A DNA stretch of 64,000 nt from an uncultured Acidimicrobiia bacterium (GCA_963848485.1 CAWKDX010000009.1:324954-388953); one strand, 5' to 3'. Positions 33,230 to 40,169 are shown, counted from the first letter of the stretch. Numbers and translations: made by a program. Notes: generated by a model not told the origin, from the sequence alone.

Positions 33230-34180
33230 TCAGCCCACAGCCCCCGTTGCGGCGACCCGCAGGGCCCGAAACATCAGCCGGGCGTCGCCCAGGCGCCGCC
33301 GGAGCTCCCGCTCCAGACCACCGATCGGGTACAGGTTCTGGGCGCACGGGGGTCCTTGTACGGCTCGCTGGCGTAGCGGCCGAGGGTGATCCCCACCGTG
33401 TCGGCGAGCGCGCCGGCGTCCGGGACGCGCGACCTCGGTCGAGCACTCGACCCGCACCACCCCGGCCCACGGCGCGTCGGCACCGCCGGGGAGCCGCAGG
33501 TACCAGGAGTGGCGGGACCACCGGCTGCCGATGGTGAAGATCGGGGTCCGCTCTCCCGCGCCGAGGGTGCTGACGAGTGCGTGCAGCGGCGGTGGCAGGT
33601 ACGCGACCTCGTGGGTCTTGACCATGCCGACCGTCCCCGGCACGTGCTGGCGACCGCTCAGCGGGCCGTCGACCACGACGAGCGCGTCGTCGGGCTCGGG
33701 ACACTCGCGTCGGGCGGCTTCCGCGGCCTCGACCTCGCGCCGGGCCATCCGTTCCTGCAGCGCGAGCCAGAGGTCCTTCGGGCTCGGACCGTTCGCGACG
33801 TGCGCGGCGTACGCGCCGTGCCTGGTCACGATCTCGGCCGCGTGCGGGGACGCGCTGAACACGCCCCGCCCGACGCTCGGGTGGATGACCTCGGCGCGCC
33901 GCCCCGCGCCACAGCGTGCGACACCCGCACCGAACGACGCGCAGATCCCCGGCTGGGCGTCGCCGTCCGGGTCTTCGATCCACACCCGGGCGTCCACCCG
34001 GCGGACCCCGTCGACGAACAGCACCGTCGCCGGCTCCCGAGCCGTCGCGCTCGGACCGATCGCGTGCCACTCGTCGGCTGGAACCTCGACGTCGGGGTTG
34101 ACGTCGACCGCCGACTGGTCGAGGTCGGACTCGACCGACGCGCCGTACTCCACGCTCCACGGATCCACCCGGAACTTCAT
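33230..34180 (-). CDS. nurA: NurA-like nuclease (DSB end-resection partner of HerA), about 2 frameshifts near 33350-33440
   Basis: ATG 34180 overlaps the sbcC stop (ATGA). MKFRVDPWSVEYGASV..TVLFVDGVRRVDARVW..VVVDGPLSG..VGMVKTHEVAYLP..SWYLRLP.. (3' part of ORF 33230..36805). C-terminus ..VPDAGALADTVGITLGRYASEPYKDPRAPQNLYPIGGLERELRRRLGD. The call rests on operon context plus recalled C-terminal NurA-like motifs. Confidence 0.55.
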   Translation of the reverse strand: MKFRVDPWSVEYGASVESDLDQSAVDVNPDVEVPADEWHAIGPSATAREPATVLFVDGVRRVDARVWIEDPDGDAQPGICASFGAGVARCGAGRRAEVIHPSVGRGVFSASPHAAEIVTRHGAYAAHVANGPSPKDLWLALQERMARREVEAAEAARRECPEPDDALVVVDGPLSGRQHVPGTVGMVKTHEVAYLPPPLHALVSTLGAGERTPIFTIGSRWSRHSWYLRLPGGADAPWAGVVRVECSTEVARPGRRRARRHGGDHPRPLRQRAVQGPPCAQNLYPIGGLERELRRRLGDARLMFRALRVAATGAVG

Positions 34181-36567
34181 CGGGTCACCCGCTCGACCGA
34201 CGCGGTGCGCGGCCCCTTCGCCACCCGGTACTGCACCGGCATCCGCTCGGCCAGCTCCCGCACGTGCGTGACGACGCCGACGGTCCGGTCGCCCGCGCCG
34301 AGGTTCTCGATCGTTCCGGCGACCGTCTCGAGCGTGTCGGGGTCGAGCGAGCCGAAGCCCTCGTCGAGGAAGATCGACTCGAGCCGCGCCGCGCCGTCGG
34401 CCGCGAGGTCGGCGAGCTGATCGGCCAGCGCGAGCGCCAGCGCGAGCGACGCCTGGAACGTCTCCCCGCCGGACAGCGTGCGCACCGAGCGGCGTTCGTC
34501 CGCGTTGCGGTGGTCGACGACCAGGAAGTCGCGGCTCGAGTCCTCGAACGCGAAGGAGTACTGCCCGGCCGACAGCTCCCGGAGCCGCAGCGACGCGCCG
34601 TCGACCAGCAGCTCGAGCGCCTCGGCCACCAGCCACCGTTCGAAGTTGCGGGCGTCGAGCAGCCGGGCGAGCTCGCGGGCGACGTGGACGTCGGCGCCGG
34701 TCTTCTCGATCTGGCGCTCGAGCTTGGTCCGCGCCTTGATGCCGTCCTTGACCCGCTGTTGCTCCGCCCGGGCGCGCCTGCTCGGCTTCCACGACCGCGT
34801 CGGCCAGCTCGTCCGGGGTGACCGGTCGCCGCACTTCGATGTCGGCTTCGAGCGCCGCGCTCGACCAGCGCGCCCGAGCTGCTCGTCGCGTCGCTGACCC
34901 GAGCTCGGTGGCAGCCGCGTCCGCCGTTGCCGCCGCCGCGGCGTGCGTCGGCGCCTCCGACTGCGGCCCACTCGACGAGCGCGGGCCAGTCCGCGGCGAG
35001 GTCGCCCCGCTCCGGACGGCGGCGCGACCCCGATCTGCACGAGCGCGTCGCGCTGGGCCCGGAACGCCGCCGCGGCCTTCTGCAGCCGGGCGTCGACCGC
35101 GTCGAGCGCGGCGCGGGCCTCGGTCTCGCTGCTTGCGGGCGTCGCGTGTCCGCGGCGCGCGCGGCCTCGACCGACTTCGCGGCCGCCTCGATCGCGTGCA
35201 GCTGACGATCGACGGCCTCCGCGTCCGGCTGCTCCGCGACCGTGCGCGCCAGCTGCGCGTTCCCGTTCGGTGAGCTCCGTCGCCGACTGCTGCGCCGCGG
35301 CCGCGTGCTCGCGGGCCTTCTGGTCCGCGGCCTTCGCGGCAGTCGACGCTGCTTGCGCGGCCCGGCCGCGCGCCGCCGGCGCGCGGCGCTTCGGGAATGC
35401 GTCTCGACCGGCTGCTCGCACACCGGGCACGGCTCGCCGACCTCGAGCGCACCGACGAGCGCGTGCGCCGCGTGGGCGACCCGGAGCGCCTCGAGCGCCC
35501 GCTCGGCGTCCGCCAGCTCGCTCGCCGCGGGCTGCGACCGCCGCGGCCGATCGCTCGGCGCCGCTCGCGGGCCTGGGCCAGCGCCGCGCGGATCTGCTCG
35601 AGCTCGTCCGAGCGCGGCGCGCGCCGCGACGCAGCGGATCCCGCGGCCCGAGCTCGGCGAGCGCCTCCTGCGCCGTGCTCACCACGCGCTGCGCCGCCTT
35701 CGCGGCCGCTTCGACTGCGTGCCGTCGAGCTCTCGCGCGGCCTGCTCGCGAGCAGTCGCCAGCTTCGCGACGGTGCCGGCATCTCCGTCCGGGTCGAGCC
35801 GCTCGACGATCTCGCGCGCTCGCGTCGCCGCGGTGGTTGCCGCGGCTGGTCCTCGCGCCGAGCGTGCTCGCAGCGCGGCCCGGGCGGCCCGCACCTCGTC
35901 GCGCAGCTGGCCGGTAGAGCGCGACCCACTGCTCCCAGACGTCGAGCTGCTCGGGCGTGCAGTCGGCGAGGGCCTCGAGCTGCTGCTCGGCCAGCTTCAC
36001 CGCGGCCTCCTGCTCGGCCGCCCGGGCCCGGGCGTTGCGCATCATGCGCTCGTACACGTCGAAGCCGAGCAGCTTGATGAGGAGGTCCTGGCGGGCCGCG
36101 GGCTTGTCGTGGAGGAACCGGGCGAACTCGTTCTGCGGGAGCACGACCGCACGGGTGAAGTGCTCGAAGGTCAGGCCGAGCAGCCCTTCGACCGCGCCGT
36201 CGATCTCGCCGACCGATCCCGCCAGCACCTCGCCGTCGACCGCCTCGAGCCGGGCTTCCTTCGTCGTCGCGCTGCCCCGCTTGTCGAGCCGGACGACCCG
36301 CGTCGCGATGTAGCGGCGACCCGCCGCTTCGAACGTCAGGCTCACCCGCGCCTCGATCGCGCCCATCGTCACGATCGGCGCGACGCTGCCCTTGTTGCCG
36401 TAGCGGGGCACGCTGCCGTAGAGCGCGAAGCAGATCGCGTCGATGACGGTCGACTTCCCGGAGCCGGTCGGGCCGACGAGCGCGAACAGCTCGACGCCTT
36501 CGAAGTCGATCTCGGTGAGCTCGCGGAACGCGCCGAAGCCCTGCGCCTGGAGCCGGACCGGCCTCAC
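34177..36567 (-). CDS. sbcC: SbcC/Rad50-family SMC-like ATPase, more than 10 frameshifts in the coiled-coil region (~34830-35950)
   Basis: GTG 36567: VRPVRLQAQGFGAFRELTEIDFEGVELFALVGPTGSGKSTVIDAI (Walker A). Zinc-hook CPVC at 35418-35429. C-terminal LSGGETFQASLALALALAD (signature) and IFLDEGFGSLD (Walker B), both in the ORF 34177..36762 frame. Confidence 0.85.
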   Translation of the reverse strand: MRPVRLQAQGFGAFRELTEIDFEGVELFALVGPTGSGKSTVIDAICFALYGSVPRYGNKGSVAPIVTMGAIEARVSLTFEAAGRRYIATRVVRLDKRGSATTKEARLEAVDGEVLAGSVGEIDGAVEGLLGLTFEHFTRAVVLPQNEFARFLHDKPAARQDLLIKLLGFDVYERMMRNARARAAEQEAAVKLAEQQLEALADCTPEQLDVWEQWVALYRPAARRGAGRPGRAASTLGARTSRGNHRGDASARDRRAARPGRRCRHRREAGDCSRAGRARARRHAVEAAAKAAQRVVSTAQEALAELGPRDPLRRGARRARTSSSRSARRWPRPASGAERSAAAVAARGERAGGRRAGARGAPGRPRGARARRCARGRRAVPGVRAAGRDAFPKRRAPAARGRAAQAASTAAKAADQKAREHAAAAQQSATELTERERAAGAHGRGAAGRGGRRSSAARDRGGREVGRGRARRGHATPASSETEARAALDAVDARLQKAAAAFRAQRDALVQIGVAPPSGAGRPRRGLARARRVGRSRRRRRTPRRRQRRTRLPPSSGQRRDEQLGRAGRARRSKPTSKCGDRSPRTSWPTRSWKPSRRARAEQQRVKDGIKARTKLERQIEKTGADVHVARELARLLDARNFERWLVAEALELLVDGASLRLRELSAGQYSFAFEDSSRDFLVVDHRNADERRSVRTLSGGETFQASLALALALADQLADLAADGAARLESIFLDEGFGSLDPDTLETVAGTIENLGAGDRTVGVVTHVRELAERMPVQYRVAKGPRTASVERVTR

Positions 36568-37726
36568 CGGGTGAGCTCCTCGTCGAGCAGCCGGGCGAAG
36601 AGCGCGACCAGCCGGTCGTCCTCGATGTTCTGCTCGTCGAGGTAGGCCGCGAACAGCTCGTGGGGGCCACGCCCGCGGCGCTCGGCCCGCGGCCGAGGGT
36701 CCGAGGCTCGCCGGCGCATCGATGCGGACCTCGACCACCCGGTCGCCGAGCAGCGCGCGCACGTCGTCGGCCAGACCCGGCTCGTGCGGGTTCGGTCACG
36801 CGCACCCGCAGCCACGTCCCCGCGAGGTCCTCGGCCGCGGCGATGGCCTGCAGCTCGGCGAAGGTCCCGGTCAGCGTGCGCAGCTGCTCCCCCGCGGTCA
36901 GCGGGATCGGCTCGATCGGACGCGGGCAGTCCCGGGCTCGGCCTCGATCACCACGACGTGCTTGCCCGCGCCCGCCTCGCCGAAGTCCACCTGGATCGGT
37001 GAGCCCGAGTACCAGATCGGCGCGCCGCCGGGCAGCTTCTGGGCCAGGTGCAGGTGCCCGAGCGCGACGTAGCTCGCCGCGCCGGGAAACACGCTCGCGT
37101 CGATCCAGTAGTCCTCGAACGCGGTCTGCGCCTCGCGCTCGCCGCCCCCGGTCTGCCCGCCGCGCACCATCGCGTGCGCCACGACGAGGTTCACCGCGCC
37201 CCCGCCGAAGTCCGCGGTCAGCGCGCCGACGATGCCACGCATCTGCTCCGCGTACGCGCCGACGTTCTCGAACGCCTCCTGGCTCATCAGCTCCGCGGCC
37301 CGCACCGCGTAGCGCTGGGAGCAGAACGGCAGCAGCGCGATGTGCGCGCGCTCACCGCCGGCAGTCGTGTGCTCGAGCACCCCGCCGGCATCGGGCCGCG
37401 CGACCTGGCCGAGCACCGTGATGCCGAGCTCGGCCATCAGCGGGCGGATCGCCTCGAACCGTCCGGGGTTGTCGTGGTTGCCGGCGACGACCACCACCTT
37501 CGCGCCGGTGTCGTGCAGGTCGAGCAGCGCGCGCAGGACGATCTGCTCGGCTTCCGCCGACGGCGCCGCGGACTCGTAGAGGTCGCCGGCGACCAGCACG
37601 AGATCGACCGACCGGGATCGCGGCCAGGTCGACGATCTCCGCGAGCACGCGGCGGTGCTCGTCCAGCCGCGACAACCCCCGGATCGTCTTGCCCACGTGC
37701 CAGTCGGACGTGTGCAGGATCCTCAC
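36564..37726 (-). CDS. sbcD: SbcD/Mre11-family nuclease (calcineurin-like phosphoesterase), about 3 frameshifts
   Basis: GTG 37726: VRILHTSDWHVGK.. (ORF 37352..37849). ..LVLVAGDLYE..VVVVAGNHDN..LVVAHAMV..YVALGHLH (ORF 36898..37599). C-terminus ..HELFAAYLDEQNIEDDRLVALFARLLDEELTR-TGA (ORF 36564..36815). GTGA overlaps at both ends. Confidence 0.85.
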
Positions 37727-39536
37727 GTGCTGCTCTCCCGAAGATCTCCCACGGCCGAGCTGCGGACCGCGACCATCCTGGGGCCGTGGGCGGCGCTGCT
37801 CACGCGCCCGGGAGTCCCGCGAAGGGGTCGGCCTCGACGCCGTCGGCACTCACGGTGCCGGTCGGCGTCGACGCGCCCGCCGCGGACCTCGTCGGGCCGG
37901 GTCGCCCACGCCGGGAACGGGAACTCGGCCACGAGCGGCACCGGGATCTCGGGCTGGCTCACGAACATCGTGCCGGGCTTCGCGATCCGGGCCCGCTCCC
38001 GGTGGGCGGCGGGCAGGAAGCCGTACTCCGGCCGCATCGCCTCGGCCGGGTCGAGCCGGCCCGCGACGCGCAGCGCCGAGTTCGCGATCACCCGCCGCTC
38101 CACCTCGCTCGCGGTCTGCTGCGCGCCGACGAGGATGATGCCGAGGCTGCGGCCCCGCTCCGCGATGTCGAGGAGCAGGTCCTTGATCGGGCTCTGGCCC
38201 TCACGGGGCGCGTACTTGTTCAGCTCGTCGAGCACGACGAAGAGCAACGGCCGGCGCGCGCCCGATTCTTCCTTCTGCTCGAACTCGCGCTGCAACGTGA
38301 CCCCGACGACGAACCGCTGCGCGCGGTCGGCCAGGTTGTGGATGTCCACCACGGTCACCTGCGCGGACTCCGCGGTGCGCACGTGCCGTCCGGCGCGGAG
38401 CGGGACGTCGGCGCGGATCAGGTGGCCGAGCGCGCGCTGCGACGACAGCAGCCGGCGCACGAACGCGTTGATGGTCCCCATGCCGACCGCGCGCCCGGCC
38501 CAGTCGAGGCTCGAGTCGTCGTCGGTCAGCCGTTCCACGATCAGCTCGACGAGCTCGTGGTAGGTGCGGACCGTCACGCCTTCGATCTGCCACGCGCCGT
38601 CGTCGCCGAACCGGCACGCCGTCGACCTTGAGCTTCCGCACGACGTTGTGGATCACCATCGTGTACTGCTGGCGCTCGTCCTCCGCGTCGGCGAAGACGA
38701 ACGGGAGCAGCTCACCCTCGACGAAGTCCGCGATGGTCCAGTAGTAGGTGCTCACGCCGGTGGTGCGGGTCGCGACGTCCGGCCCGGCGTTCGGATCGCC
38801 CTTGCGCGGCGGGGCGAAGACCGCCACCGACTCGAACGGTCCCGGGGTGAGGCCGAGCGTGCGGTAGCGGTCCTGCTGCTCCTCGTCGAGCTTGCCGTTG
38901 GGCTGGTCGAGGAAGAGGAGGTCCTCGCCCTTCACGTTGAAGATGAGCGCCTTCGTGTTGACGGCCTCGGCGCCGAGCACGCCCGGAGTGGAACATGCTG
39001 TAGAGCAGGAACGTCGCGTAGCTCGTCTTGGTCGCGACGCCGGAGATGCCGCTGATGTTGACGTGCGCGCCACGGGTGCCGTCGAGGAACTCGAGGTTGG
39101 CGTAGAGCGGCGCACCGTCGCGACCGAGCCCGATCGGGACCCGGTGCTCCATGTCGTCGAAGAACAGCGCGTGGTCGCGCTCCGCGTCCTCGGCCCGGCG
39201 CGCCGGCGCGCCCGGCAGCGGCGGGACGTAGATCTCCGGCTCGACCCGGCTCACGGTGATCTCGGCCACCTCGACCGCCTCGCCCGGCAGCACGCCGTCG
39301 GCGATGAGGAAGACGTCCGAGGCGAACTGCGCGCCCTCCTGGCGGCCGATGACCTGGGTGACGATGCCCGACAGCGTCACCGACTCGTCGTCCGGGAGCG
39401 GCCGCTCGCAGATCACGACGTCGTCGAGCTGCAGGTAGCGCTCCGGGCTCAGCGCGACCCAGAAGTGCAGCGGGGTGCTGTCCTCCGTGCCGACGACCCG
39501 CCCCACGGGCCCCGTCTGGCGCGCCTGATCGCTCAT
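37723..39536 (-). CDS. herA: HerA-like (DUF87/FtsK-HerA superfamily) ATPase, about 4 frameshifts
   Basis: ATG 39536: MSDQARQTGPVGRVVGTEDSTPLHFWVAL.. (N-terminal barrel). P-loop region HVNISGISGVATKTSY (39021-39050). Walker B LLFVVLDELNKYAP. ..AERGRSLGIILVGAQQTASEV.. (ORFs 38712.., 38201.., 37723..38577). The last ~60 codons need two compensating shifts. The stop at 37723-37725 overlaps the sbcD GTG. Confidence 0.7.
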
Positions 39537-39587
39537 GCGGCGGAGCGTATCGAGCGACCGCGCCGCCGGGCTCGTAACGTCGCGGTG

Positions 39588-40169
39588 ATGGAGAGCCGGG
39601 CCGCGACCACGGAGGATCTGCAGGCGATCGCGGTGACGTTGGCCGGCGCGTTCGAGCCCGACCCGGTCTGGGGCTGGGCGTTCCCCGAGCGCGACCAGCT
39701 CGAGGTCTGGTGGCGGTTCTGGGTCGCCGCGGCGTTGCGGCAGGGTGCGGTGCGCATGACCGAGCGGGCCGAGGCAGTCACGGTCTGGATCCCGCCGGGT
39801 GGCCACGAGCTCGCCCCCGCCGACGAGCCGCACGTCGCGCCGTTGCTGCGCGCGCTCATCGGCGACCGCGCCCGGCTCGTGCTCGATCTGCTCGACTGCT
39901 TCGACGCGAACCATCCCCCGGCGTCGCCGCCGTACTACTACCTGACCCTCTTCGGCACCGCGCCGGACCACCGCGGCCAGGGCATCGGCATGGCGCTGCT
40001 CGACGACACGTTGGAGCGCATCGACGCGGCGCACTCGCCCGCGTACCTCGAATCGAGCAACCCCGTGAACATCGGGCGCTACGAGTCCGTCGGGTTCGTC
40101 CCGCGCTCGACGTTCGCACTGCCCGGGGGCAACGGCACGGTCACCACCATGTGGCGTGCGTCGCGCTGA
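39588..40169 (+). CDS. GNAT family N-acetyltransferase
   Basis: Intact frame from ATG 39588 (3' part of ORF 38892..40169). ..YYYLTLFGTAPDHRGQGIGMALLDDTL..PAYLESSNPVNIGRYESVGF. Divergent from herA with a 51-nt spacer. Confidence 0.8.
   Translation: MESRAATTEDLQAIAVTLAGAFEPDPVWGWAFPERDQLEVWWRFWVAAALRQGAVRMTERAEAVTVWIPPGGHELAPADEPHVAPLLRALIGDRARLVLDLLDCFDANHPPASPPYYYLTLFGTAPDHRGQGIGMALLDDTLERIDAAHSPAYLESSNPVNIGRYESVGFVPRSTFALPGGNGTVTTMWRASR

What the first reader, a model, noticed from the sequence alone, without database searches (positions are those of the whole stretch)
33230..39536. Archaeal-style HerA-Mre11-Rad50-NurA operon with every junction translationally coupled
Four minus-strand genes occur in the order herA-like ATPase, sbcD/mre11, sbcC/rad50 (with CPVC zinc hook at 35418-35429) and a nurA-like gene. 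The stop and start codons overlap by 4 nt at all three junctions: GTGA at 37723-37726, GTGA at 36564-36567 and ATGA at 34177-34180. As I recall, this is the same gene order as the crenarchaeal (Sulfolobus) DSB end-resection operon. The typical bacterial arrangement is sbcCD alone. The bacterial HerA-NurA pairs studied so far (Deinococcus) are not fused into one operon with Mre11-Rad50, as far as I know. No SOS box was seen in the 51-nt herA upstream region.
Basis: partly seen in the sequence, partly recalled or inferred. Interest (0 to 1): 0.6.

Follow-up and report, generated by a model that had tools for sequence, protein, structure and literature searches.

The report
Bacterial HerA-SbcD-SbcC-NurA DNA-break repair operon
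This is a real four-gene DNA-end-processing operon (HerA motor, SbcD/SbcC break-recognition nuclease, NurA nuclease), but it is built from bacterial-type proteins, is common in Actinobacteria, and looks broken here only because the assembly is full of small insertion and deletion errors.

Summary
The four minus-strand genes are present in the stated order: herA-like 39536-37800, sbcD 37726-36564, sbcC 36567-34177 (CPVC hook at 35418-35429) and nurA-like 34180-33230.

None of the four is a clean ORF here. They carry 21-24 frameshifts. Neighbouring genes carry 2.4 per kb, and rpoB and rpoC are also broken, so these are assembly errors and not decay.

Two of the three 4-nt overlaps hold (sbcD/sbcC and sbcC/nurA). 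The herA/sbcD overlap is a frameshift artefact. The conserved HerA end, DPFAGLPGA, stops at 37800-37802, 73 nt before sbcD.

HerA and NurA are Deinococcus-type. Profile matches to PDB 7F6D give E=5e-179 and 2e-53, and a pLDDT-95 NurA model matches its fold. No archaeal HerA or NurA was hit. SbcCD is also bacterial-type.

In 63 of 63 related loci with enough flank the order is the same. In a 301-genome phylum sample, all 66 further HerA-positive genomes hold sbcD and nurA, in two orders. The window's order forms one clade, nested among nurA-first clusters.

Many relatives have a PafBC/RecA-NDp-like promoter before herA. The window has no clean match.

Earlier agents in this scan reported the same operon on other DNA. 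I rate it ordinary but experimentally unstudied.

The parts
37800..39536 (-). herA-like hexameric FtsK/HerA-type ATPase gene (Deinococcus HerA type). It is read in three frames because of indels near 38981, 38605 and 37884. Walker A-like GISGVATKT lies at 39050-39024 and Walker B VVLDELNKY at 38238-38212. The likely true stop is TGA at 37800-37802.
   Evidence: Frameshift-aware alignment to the G003 ortholog gives 90% identity. The family profile A2 matches D. radiodurans HerA (PDB 7F6D_B) at E=4.8e-179 over its full length. Motif positions are and the tail frames.
37727..37799 (-). 73-nt herA-sbcD spacer with a Shine-Dalgarno GGGAGAG (37739-37733) 6 nt before the sbcD GTG.
36564..37726 (-). 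sbcD (Mre11-type phosphoesterase), with four frame changes (37618, 36923, 36775, 36717). Motifs HTSDWH, AGDLY, GNHD and GHLH are present.
   Evidence: The main frame piece (36898-37722) scores 123 bits against NCBIfam TIGR00619 sbcd (cut-off 77.65). Archaeal Mre11 models score 31-40 bits. Alignment to the G003 SbcD gives 82% identity.
34177..36567 (-). sbcC (Rad50-type ABC ATPase, about 796 aa). The start GTG overlaps the sbcD stop (GTGA 36564-36567). Walker A GPTGSGKST is at 36474-36448, signature LSGGE at 34476-34462 and Walker B FLDEGF at 34371-34354. There are 12-15 frame changes in the coiled coil (35907-34771).
   Evidence: The window piece hits TIGR00618 sbcC at E=2.7e-75, against archaeal Rad50 models at E=1e-16 or weaker. 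The intact G008 ortholog hits Pfam AAA_23, SbcC_Walker_B and SMC_N.
35418..35429 (-). CPVC zinc hook of SbcC. In this assembly it lies in a frame other than that of the head domains.
33230..34180 (-). nurA (bacterial NurA nuclease, RNase-H-like fold, 316 codons). The ATG overlaps the sbcC stop (ATGA 34177-34180). DG motifs FVDGVRR (34018-33998) and VVDGPL (33676-33659) are present. A compensating frameshift pair at 33424 and 33338 garbles 29 residues.
   Evidence: Profile A1 matches D. radiodurans NurA (7F6D_H) at E=2.4e-53 and T. maritima TM1739 (1ZUP) at E=6e-20. The AF2 model of the G008 ortholog has pLDDT 95.2. Foldseek's top hits are 7F6D_G and 1ZUP, TM 0.65-0.77. D57, E149 and D171 are invariant across 100 diverse relatives.
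39537..39587 (-). 51-nt divergent promoter region between herA and a GNAT gene. A -10-like TACGCT (39549-39544) ends 7 nt before the herA ATG, which suggests a leaderless or near-leaderless transcript. The upstream TGTC element seen in relatives is degenerate here (GGTCGC, with shortened spacing).

Best explanation
The locus is a chromosomal four-gene operon, herA-sbcD-sbcC-nurA, of an Acidimicrobiia (Actinomycetota) bacterium. [quoted passage not shown]

Inferred mechanism, by homology. SbcCD is the genome's only Mre11-Rad50-type complex. It recognises, tethers and opens or cleans DNA ends and hairpins. The HerA hexamer translocates DNA into a NurA dimer, which degrades it, as shown for the Deinococcus radiodurans HerA-NurA complex. 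This gives long-range resection for RecA-dependent repair.

The four genes evolve and move as one unit. In many relatives they sit behind a PafBC/RecA-NDp-like DNA-damage promoter and not a LexA box.

The resemblance to the crenarchaeal herA-mre11-rad50-nurA order is convergent. This order arose once inside Bacteria from a nurA-herA-sbcD-sbcC arrangement.

The many frame breaks in this window are assembly errors, and the genes are most likely intact in the organism.

Shown here: gene identities, fold, motifs, linkage, phylogenetic pattern and error rate. Inferred: co-transcription, damage induction, physical cooperation of SbcCD with HerA-NurA, and the repair role.
For: Identity. The HerA profile matches D. 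radiodurans HerA (7F6D_B) at E=4.8e-179 over its full length. The NurA profile matches D. radiodurans NurA at E=2.4e-53 and TM1739 at E=6e-20. The NurA model has pLDDT 95.2 and its top fold matches are 7F6D_G and 1ZUP. The catalytic D/E/D residues are invariant. The SbcD and SbcC pieces match bacterial sbcD and sbcC models, and all ATPase and phosphoesterase motifs are intact in the window.

Linkage. In 63 of 63 loci with enough flank the order is herA>sbcD>sbcC>nurA on one strand. In a 301-genome phylum sample, 66 genomes besides the window's own have HerA. All 66 have SbcD, 65 as a single match. It lies directly downstream of herA in 57 and downstream with inserts in 7. All 66 have NurA, downstream in 25 and directly upstream of herA in 34. 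In 20 of 20 fetched nurA-first loci sbcD and sbcC follow herA.

Evolution as a unit. The HerA, NurA and SbcD trees each separate the two orders by one branch (SH-aLRT 91, 100, 100). With the HerA tree rooted on Deinococcus HerA, the window's order is one clade and the nurA-first clusters are basal.

Regulation. The pattern TGTC[AG]NNN-N7-9-[TC]ANNNT lies upstream of herA in 41 of 63 sequences (62 related loci plus the window, which does not match). Shuffles give 0.5 and the opposite strand gives 0. The RecA-NDp/PafBC promoter is described in PMC8223512, and mycobacterial sbcD is reported in the PafBC regulon (PMC11348249). Tandem WYL-domain genes, as in pafBC, occur in four relatives.

Assembly errors. 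rpoB has at least 2 and rpoC at least 1 frame change. Neighbouring genes carry 119 frameshifts in 49 kb of coding sequence. Completeness is 56% in only 24 contigs. Orthologs in better assemblies are intact.
Against: The window's own upstream region lacks a clean TGTC-N8-TAnnnT match, and no WYL gene was found in this incomplete genome. The motif count is inflated by related genomes.

In the two bacteria studied, nurA/herA mutants show mild or even opposite phenotypes. The title of Fujii et al. 2018, cited in PMC13748450, reports resistance to UV caused by inactivation of nurA and herA in Thermus. So a central repair role is not established.

The cluster is patchy (22% of the sampled genomes). 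It crosses phyla, and single families hold both orders, which is also what a mobile accessory or defence module would show.

Relatives also carry an AdnAB-like tandem of large PD-(D/E)xK proteins, so this is not the only candidate resection system.

Frameshift density in the SbcC coiled coil (about 10 per kb) is four times the local background and is not fully explained.
Confidence: 0.72

Rival explanations
1. The cluster is mainly a defence or anti-foreign-DNA module. SbcCD and HerA-NurA would together degrade linear or unprotected incoming DNA (phage or plasmid), and would not primarily repair the chromosome.
For: The distribution is patchy: 67 of 301 genomes and 53 of 199 genera. The cluster transfers horizontally as a unit. 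Gammaproteobacteria, Bacteroidota and Gemmatimonadota rows nest inside the actinobacterial clade, and single families hold both gene orders. HerA-type ATPases paired with nucleases are known anti-phage systems. The NurA model also resembles TdpAB (8WFD_G, E=2e-5). There are weak PADLOC hits to HerA, mad and LmuB models. The 2026 review PMC13748450 states that bacterial NurA-HerA mainly degrades foreign DNA.
Against: The similarity to the Deinococcus repair-type HerA (E=4.8e-179) dwarfs that to anti-phage HerA structures (E>=0.002). PADLOC hits are generic P-loop or SMC matches at E of 1e-5 to 1e-7 for HerA, and NurA has none. There is no Sir2, DUF4297 or other effector partner. The cluster carries the genome's only sbcD. 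It sits in a region syntenic between G000 and G008. In many lineages it is preceded by a DNA-damage-type promoter motif.
Confidence: 0.15
2. The operon in this organism is a decaying set of pseudogenes. The 21-24 frameshifts would be real, and the repair module is being lost in this lineage.
For: Frameshift density in the operon (3.3-3.8 per kb) is above the local background of 2.4 per kb, and it reaches about 10 per kb in the SbcC coiled coil. The sites are not tied to long homopolymers. The upstream promoter element is shortened relative to congeners.
Against: Essential rpoB and rpoC are frameshifted too. Most of the 46 neighbouring genes tested carry frameshifts. Completeness of 56% in 24 contigs fits an error-rich long-read assembly. 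Inside the operon every segment still reads 74-90% identical to orthologs in its own frame, with no stops in the frames used and all catalytic motifs intact. The SbcC heads remain in one frame.
Confidence: 0.05
3. The operon was acquired from Archaea as a ready-made herA-mre11-rad50-nurA unit.
For: Gene content and order are identical to the crenarchaeal operon (Constantinesco et al. 2004, cited in PMC13748450). The review PMC13748450 suggests that bacterial nurA came from archaea by transfer.
Against: The family profiles find no archaeal HerA or NurA chain in the PDB at E<=1 and E<=10, although such structures are cited in the literature (e.g. 4D2I in PMC9960219). They match the Deinococcus proteins at E=5e-179 and 2e-53. 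Bacterial sbcC and sbcD models far outscore archaeal Rad50 and Mre11 models: 254 against at most 60 bits, and 123 against at most 40 bits. The window's order is a derived single clade among nurA-first bacterial clusters.
Confidence: 0.04

Closest known systems
Deinococcus radiodurans HerA-NurA complex (PDB 7F6D, 7WRW, 7WRX; PMC9960219)
   Same: The same protein families over full length: HerA profile E=4.8e-179 and NurA profile E=2.4e-53. The model matches the same NurA fold. Walker and DG motifs are conserved. The two genes lie in one operon.
   Different: In Deinococcus, nurA and herA are treated as a two-gene operon (PMC9960219). Here sbcD and sbcC lie between herA and nurA, and nurA is the last gene, not the first.
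Oceanithermus profundus hepA(herA) locus with sbcD and sbcC downstream (Blesa et al. 2017, PMC5448004)
   Same: A bacterial-type HerA joined to bacterial SbcD and SbcC. The authors read it as an architecture like the archaeal break-repair system.
   Different: It was reported for one genus of Thermales. By analogy with Thermus its order is probably nurA-first, like the 'type 2' actinobacterial clusters. The window has nurA last. I did not inspect the Oceanithermus locus myself.
Crenarchaeal herA-mre11-rad50-nurA operon (Sulfolobus/Saccharolobus; Constantinesco et al. 2004, cited in PMC13748450; PMC4351679)
   Same: The same four functions in the same gene order, tightly packed on one strand.
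   Different: The proteins are not the archaeal lineages. The host is a high-G+C mesophilic-type actinobacterium. In relatives the promoter is PafBC/RecA-NDp-like. The order arose independently.
Bacterial SbcCD (E. coli and B. subtilis type)
   Same: SbcD phosphoesterase motifs are present. So are the SbcC Walker A, signature and Walker B motifs and the CxxC zinc hook. The sbcD stop overlaps the sbcC start.
   Different: SbcC is short, about 790-800 aa against roughly 1,040-1,130 positions in the sbcC models. The pair is embedded between herA and nurA and does not stand alone. sbcD without HerA also exists in the phylum.
Anti-phage HerA-effector systems (Sir2-HerA, DUF4297-HerA, TdpAB; PDB 8XAU, 9C1M, 8ZIQ, 8WFD)
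   Same: A HerA-type hexameric ATPase paired with a nuclease. TdpAB's nuclease subunit is a distant fold match of NurA.
   Different: Sequence similarity is only marginal (E 0.002-0.4). There is no Sir2 or DUF4297 partner, and PADLOC models hit only weakly.

Membership tests
Bacterial NurA (Deinococcus/Thermotoga type) | RNase-H-like NurA fold | tested here: met
   The AF2 model of the 69%-identical G008 ortholog has pLDDT 95.2. Foldseek's top hits are 7F6D_G (E=6.6e-20, TM 0.69) and 1ZUP (TM 0.65-0.77).
Bacterial NurA (Deinococcus/Thermotoga type) | Sequence homology to characterised NurA | tested here: met
   Profile A1 matches 7F6D_H at E=2.4e-53 and 1ZUP at E=6.3e-20. The Pfam NurA model alone is below its cut-off (15.5 against 21 bits).
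Bacterial NurA (Deinococcus/Thermotoga type) | Acidic catalytic residues in the two DG motifs, plus a glutamate | tested here: met
   D57, G58, E149, D171 and G172 are invariant in 100 diverse relatives. FVDGVRR and VVDGPL are present in the window.
Bacterial NurA (Deinococcus/Thermotoga type) | Mn2+-dependent 5'-3' exo/endonuclease activity stimulated by HerA | not testable with these tools
   This needs purified proteins.
Bacterial HerA (Deinococcus HerA / Thermus HepA type) | Full-length homology, including the N-terminal barrel and the RecA-like ATPase core | tested here: met
   Profile A2 positions 5-553 align to 7F6D_B residues 9-605 at E=4.8e-179. Pfam DUF87 does not hit.
Bacterial HerA (Deinococcus HerA / Thermus HepA type) | P-loop and Walker B motifs | tested here: met
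   GISGVATKT and VVLDELNKY are present in the window and identical in D. radiodurans HerA.
Bacterial HerA (Deinococcus HerA / Thermus HepA type) | Hexameric ring that binds a NurA dimer | not testable with these tools
   No complex prediction was available.
SbcCD (bacterial Mre11-Rad50) | SbcD calcineurin-like phosphoesterase motifs and a match to the sbcD model above its cut-off | tested here: met
   TIGR00619 scores 123 bits against a 77.65 cut-off on the main frame piece. Motifs HTSDWH, GDLY, GNHD and GHLH are present.
SbcCD (bacterial Mre11-Rad50) | SbcC ABC-ATPase heads, coiled coil and CxxC zinc hook | tested here: met
   Walker A, signature and Walker B motifs and CPVC are present. TIGR00618 hits at E=2.7e-75 but below its full-length cut-off, because the coiled coil is frame-broken here.
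Archaeal herA-mre11-rad50-nurA operon | Four genes in this content and order on one strand | tested here: met
Archaeal herA-mre11-rad50-nurA operon | Proteins belong to the archaeal HerA, NurA, Mre11 and Rad50 lineages | tested here: not met
   No archaeal HerA or NurA chain was found by the family profiles. Bacterial sbcC and sbcD models far outscore the archaeal ones. The window's order is a clade nested among bacterial nurA-first clusters.
Anti-phage HerA systems (PADLOC HerA, Sir2-HerA, DUF4297-HerA) | Strong match to the defence HerA models and a Sir2 or DUF4297 effector next door | tested here: not met
   The best PADLOC HerA hit is E=2.5e-5 over the C-terminal part only. NurA has no hit. 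NCBIfam HerA_antiphage_2 gives E=0.029. The neighbours are sbcD, sbcC and nurA.
PafBC / RecA-NDp DNA-damage regulon | TGTCRgtg-8 nt-TAnnnT promoter upstream of the first gene | tested here: inconclusive
   A relaxed form is present in 41 of 63 upstream sequences, against 0.5 in shuffles. In the window only the -10 TACGCT is clear, and the TGTC element is degenerate with shortened spacing. I quote the consensus from memory of Gamulin et al. 2004, cited in PMC8223512.
PafBC / RecA-NDp DNA-damage regulon | The organism encodes PafB and PafC (tandem WYL-domain regulators) | tested here: inconclusive
   Tandem WYL genes occur in G008, G002, G003 and G013. None was found in the error-rich, 56%-complete G000.

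The most novel reading that the evidence does not exclude
In Actinomycetota and several other phyla, HerA-NurA and SbcCD form one co-regulated, damage-inducible (PafBC-type) four-protein resection machine. This machine was assembled independently of the archaeal one and converged on the same gene order. If so, the archaeal-style Mre11-Rad50/HerA-NurA pathway becomes genetically tractable in cultured bacteria such as Micromonospora or Actinoplanes. [quoted passage not shown]
Probability: 0.4. Interest if true: 0.55.

Novelty: new member of a known kind. Interest (0 to 1): 0.3.

Why it matters
HerA-NurA has been studied with Mre11-Rad50 only in thermophilic archaea. In bacteria it has been studied only as an isolated pair, in Deinococcus and Thermus.

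[quoted passage not shown] The survey here contradicts that. In this phylum, every sampled genome with this HerA also has nurA and sbcD, nearly always in one co-oriented cluster. That cluster holds the genome's only sbcD, and it occurs in cultured genera.

This points to a second end-resection route beside AdnAB in Actinobacteria, and it gives tractable hosts for testing how Mre11-Rad50-type and HerA-NurA-type machines cooperate.

For this particular window the practical lesson is different. The assembly carries about one indel per 400 bases, so ORF boundaries and 'overlaps' read from it are unreliable.

Tried and rejected

2. Pfam and NCBIfam scans of the raw frame pieces gave nothing for the HerA and NurA pieces. 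Pfam DUF87 misses this HerA family even when the protein is intact. The identifications came from family profiles searched against PDB sequences.

3. I tested whether the frameshifts reflect homopolymer errors. Only 1 of 24 sites lies near a run of 4 or more identical bases, and G000 is not depleted in such runs. I rejected that explanation, so the error type remains unknown.

4. I searched for a LexA/SOS box. No consistent box lies upstream of herA in the window or in 62 related loci.

5. The sigma-70 promoter and intrinsic terminator scan was uninformative in this 72% G+C DNA. It found no promoter, and one terminator-like site inside nurA, at chance level.

6. I could not read Iyer et al. 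2004 on the FtsK-HerA superfamily, because it is not held. An early mention of bacterial HerA-SbcCD linkage there cannot be excluded.

7. I looked at the genes inserted between herA and sbcD in some relatives. They are unrelated secreted, membrane or GNAT-like ORFs, often on the other strand, and I did not pursue them.

8. I considered the pseudogene reading and rejected it because rpoB and rpoC are frameshifted too.
Full report
**What is in the sequence**

On the minus strand of 33230-39536 lie four co-oriented genes. Stop-to-stop ORFs and tblastn with intact orthologs show that none of them is a clean single ORF in this assembly.

I aligned the intact proteins of two same-genus relatives (G003, G008) to the DNA with a frameshift-aware dynamic program. 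I repeated it with harsher frameshift penalties. The results were:

- herA-like, 39536 to about 37800: 90% identity to G003, with 3 frame changes near 38981, 38605 and 37884.
- sbcD, 37726-36564: 82% identity, with 4 frame changes.
- sbcC, 36567-34177: 74% identity, with 12-15 frame changes, all in the coiled coil at 35907-34771.
- nurA-like, 34180-33230: 81% identity, with a compensating pair at 33424 and 33338.

All catalytic motifs are present:

- HerA: GISGVATKT and VVLDELNKY.
- SbcD: HTSDWH, GDLY, GNHD and GHLH.
- SbcC: GPTGSGKST, LSGGE and FLDEGF.
- NurA: FVDGVRR and VVDGPL.

**The frame breaks are assembly errors**

The window lies in G000, which has 3.69 Mb in 24 contigs but only 56% marker completeness.

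- The essential genes rpoB and rpoC are also split across frames.
- With the same method, 46 genes around the operon show 119 frameshifts in 49 kb of coding sequence, or 2.4 per kb. tblastn frame switches give the same picture.
- Orthologous clusters in better assemblies (G008, G003, G002, G013, G015, G027, G021) have intact ORFs of about 585, 385, 790 and 316 aa.

The operon's rate (3.3-3.8 per kb) is of the same order as the background. The SbcC coiled coil is about four times richer than background, and I could not explain that. There is no link to homopolymers.

**Junctions**

The sbcD/sbcC overlap (GTGA 36564-36567) and the sbcC/nurA overlap (ATGA 34177-34180) agree with the ends and starts of the orthologs.

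The herA/sbcD 'overlap' does not. HerA family members end in a nearly invariant DPFxGLPG. In the window this is encoded as DPFAGLPGA followed by TGA at 37800-37802, in a frame reached by the third frameshift. That leaves 73 nt with a GGGAGAG ribosome-binding site before the sbcD GTG.

Across 62 related loci:

- sbcD/sbcC overlaps by 4 or 1 nt in 49.
- sbcC/nurA has no gap or overlaps in 29.
- herA/sbcD has no gap or overlaps in 8.
- All three junctions overlap by 4 nt in only 2.

**What the proteins are**

Pfam misses the HerA-like protein, and it scores NurA below its cut-off. So I built family alignments: A2 for HerA (42 sequences) and A1 for NurA (100 diverse representatives).

Searched against all PDB chain sequences:

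- A2 matches D. radiodurans HerA (7F6D_B) at E=4.8e-179 over its full length. The next hits are anti-phage HerA proteins at E>=0.002.
- A1 matches D. radiodurans NurA (7F6D_H) at E=2.4e-53 and T. maritima TM1739 (1ZUP) at E=6e-20.
- Neither profile returned an archaeal HerA or NurA chain at the thresholds used.

An AlphaFold model of the G008 NurA ortholog has pLDDT 95.2. Its best structural matches are the same two entries, followed by TdpAB. D57, E149 and D171 are invariant.

The SbcD and SbcC pieces score far better on bacterial sbcD and sbcC models than on archaeal Mre11 and Rad50 models. PADLOC gives only weak generic hits.

The lineage, however, is bacterial (Deinococcus/Thermotoga type) and not archaeal.

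**How widespread the arrangement is**

A scan of one genome per species for HerA relatives returned more than 563 matches. The 80 best include Acidimicrobiia, Micromonosporaceae (Micromonospora, Actinoplanes and others), Glycomyces and Nitriliruptorales. They also include MAGs labelled Gammaproteobacteria, Gemmatimonadota, Cyclobacteriaceae and Limnocylindrales. Source names on homologs also label them Acidimicrobiia.

All 63 loci with enough flank have herA>sbcD>sbcC>nurA on one strand. The rest are cut by contig ends.

In an even sample of 301 genomes of the phylum:

- 67 (22%; 53 of 199 genera) have this HerA, that is 66 besides the window's own genome.
- All 66 also have SbcD, 65 as a single match. 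In 57 it lies directly downstream of herA. In 7 it lies downstream after 2.7-14 kb of inserted genes.
- All 66 have NurA. It lies after sbcC in 25 (the window's order, 'type 1') and directly upstream of herA in 34 ('type 2', nurA-herA-sbcD-sbcC).
- All 20 fetched type 2 loci showed sbcD and sbcC after herA.
- SbcD above its cut-off occurs in 125 of the 301, so sbcCD without HerA/NurA is also common.

**Evolution**

In a HerA tree rooted on the Deinococcus protein, type 1 is one clade (SH-aLRT 91). Type 2 forms two basal clades. The non-actinobacterial rows nest inside type 1. The NurA and SbcD trees split the two types by one branch with support 100.

The four genes therefore evolve as a unit. 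Given the rooting, and given that nurA precedes the herA homolog in Thermus and its relatives (PMC5448004), the window's Sulfolobus-like order is most simply a single bacterial rearrangement of a nurA-first cluster. That is convergence, not import of an archaeal operon. This last step is an inference from a quick tree with one outgroup.

**Regulation**

Upstream of herA, 41 of 63 sequences (62 related loci plus the window, which does not match) carry TGTC[AG]NNN-N7-9-[TC]ANNNT on the sense strand. Shuffles give 0.5 and the opposite strand gives 0.

- The count is inflated by related genomes, but the element spans Acidimicrobiia and Micromonosporaceae.
- It resembles the actinobacterial RecA-independent RecA-NDp promoter bound by PafBC (PMC8223512).
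- sbcD is reported in the mycobacterial PafBC regulon (PMC11348249).
- Tandem WYL-domain genes, as in pafBC, are present in four relatives.

In the window only the -10-like TACGCT, ending 7 nt before the ATG, is clear. That suggests a leaderless mRNA. The TGTC element is degenerate and the spacing is shortened relative to congeners.

**Function**

By homology, SbcCD processes ends and hairpins, and HerA feeds DNA to NurA for resection. The obligatory linkage, the single sbcD copy and the damage-type promoter favour a chromosomal repair role.

Relatives also have an AdnAB-like tandem, so this would be an additional route.

The patchy, horizontally mobile distribution keeps a defence role possible. 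So does the claim in PMC13748450 that bacterial NurA-HerA degrades foreign DNA.

**Literature and earlier notes**

Blesa et al. 2017 (PMC5448004) already noted sbcD and sbcC downstream of the herA homolog in Oceanithermus. [quoted passage not shown] Searches for the operon in actinobacterial literature found nothing specific.

Earlier agents of this scan reported the same operon on other genomes, with the same reading. My calls reach it independently.

**Verdict**

The operon is real and intact in its relatives, and it is mis-framed here by assembly error. It is a further member of a known kind of system, with one artefactual junction claim. It is of modest interest mainly because the bacterial four-gene linkage is under-described.

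Noticed in passing
whole window and G000 (e.g. G000:C1:730-6232 for rpoB and rpoC): The assembly carries about 2.4 frameshift indels per kb of coding sequence, and rpoB and rpoC are split across frames. Any ORF boundary, overlap or 'pseudogene' read from this genome needs checking against relatives.
   Followed up: yes
window 34771-35907: The SbcC coiled-coil stretch has about 10 frame changes per kb, four times the local background. It shows no homopolymer association. The cause may be error-prone context or strain heterogeneity, and remains unexplained.
   Followed up: partly
window 39588-40169 (+): A GNAT-type acetyltransferase-like ORF is transcribed divergently from herA across a 51-nt gap. 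This implies two back-to-back, probably leaderless promoters.
   Followed up: no
L107-L126 (e.g. L107:1544-7770): A second, equally common arrangement, nurA-herA-sbcD-sbcC, exists in the same phylum. Single family codes (f23, f32, f36) hold both orders, which implies replacement or transfer of the whole cluster.
   Followed up: partly
L039, L041, L046, L105, L059: Clusters in the window's order occur in MAGs labelled Gammaproteobacteria, Gemmatimonadota, Cyclobacteriaceae and Limnocylindrales. Those included in the HerA tree nest inside the actinobacterial clade. This points to cross-phylum transfer, or to binning error.
   Followed up: partly
L141:6024-8841, L139:5823-11730, L140:5575-9286, L136:6201-8979, L038:9629-12278, L104:4784-7565, L061:13309-14443: In several lineages the operon is interrupted by 1-6 kb of unrelated genes (secreted, membrane or GNAT-like ORFs, often on the other strand). 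The inserts lie between herA and sbcD, between sbcD and sbcC, or between sbcC and nurA.
   Followed up: partly
G008:C7:1250189-1251344; G003:C103:17849-19004; G002:C17:47692-48928; G013:C8:41149-42278: Tandem WYL-domain genes, the arrangement expected for pafB-pafC, occur in relatives. None was detected in G000 itself.
   Followed up: partly
G003:C65:27742-32033; G008:C4:474225-478604; G013:C13:23863-28211; G015:C3:31948-36332: Pairs of PD-(D/E)xK nuclease domains lie about 3.5 kb apart, mostly within long open frames. This fits an AdnAB-like helicase-nuclease, a second candidate end-resection system in this lineage.
   Followed up: no
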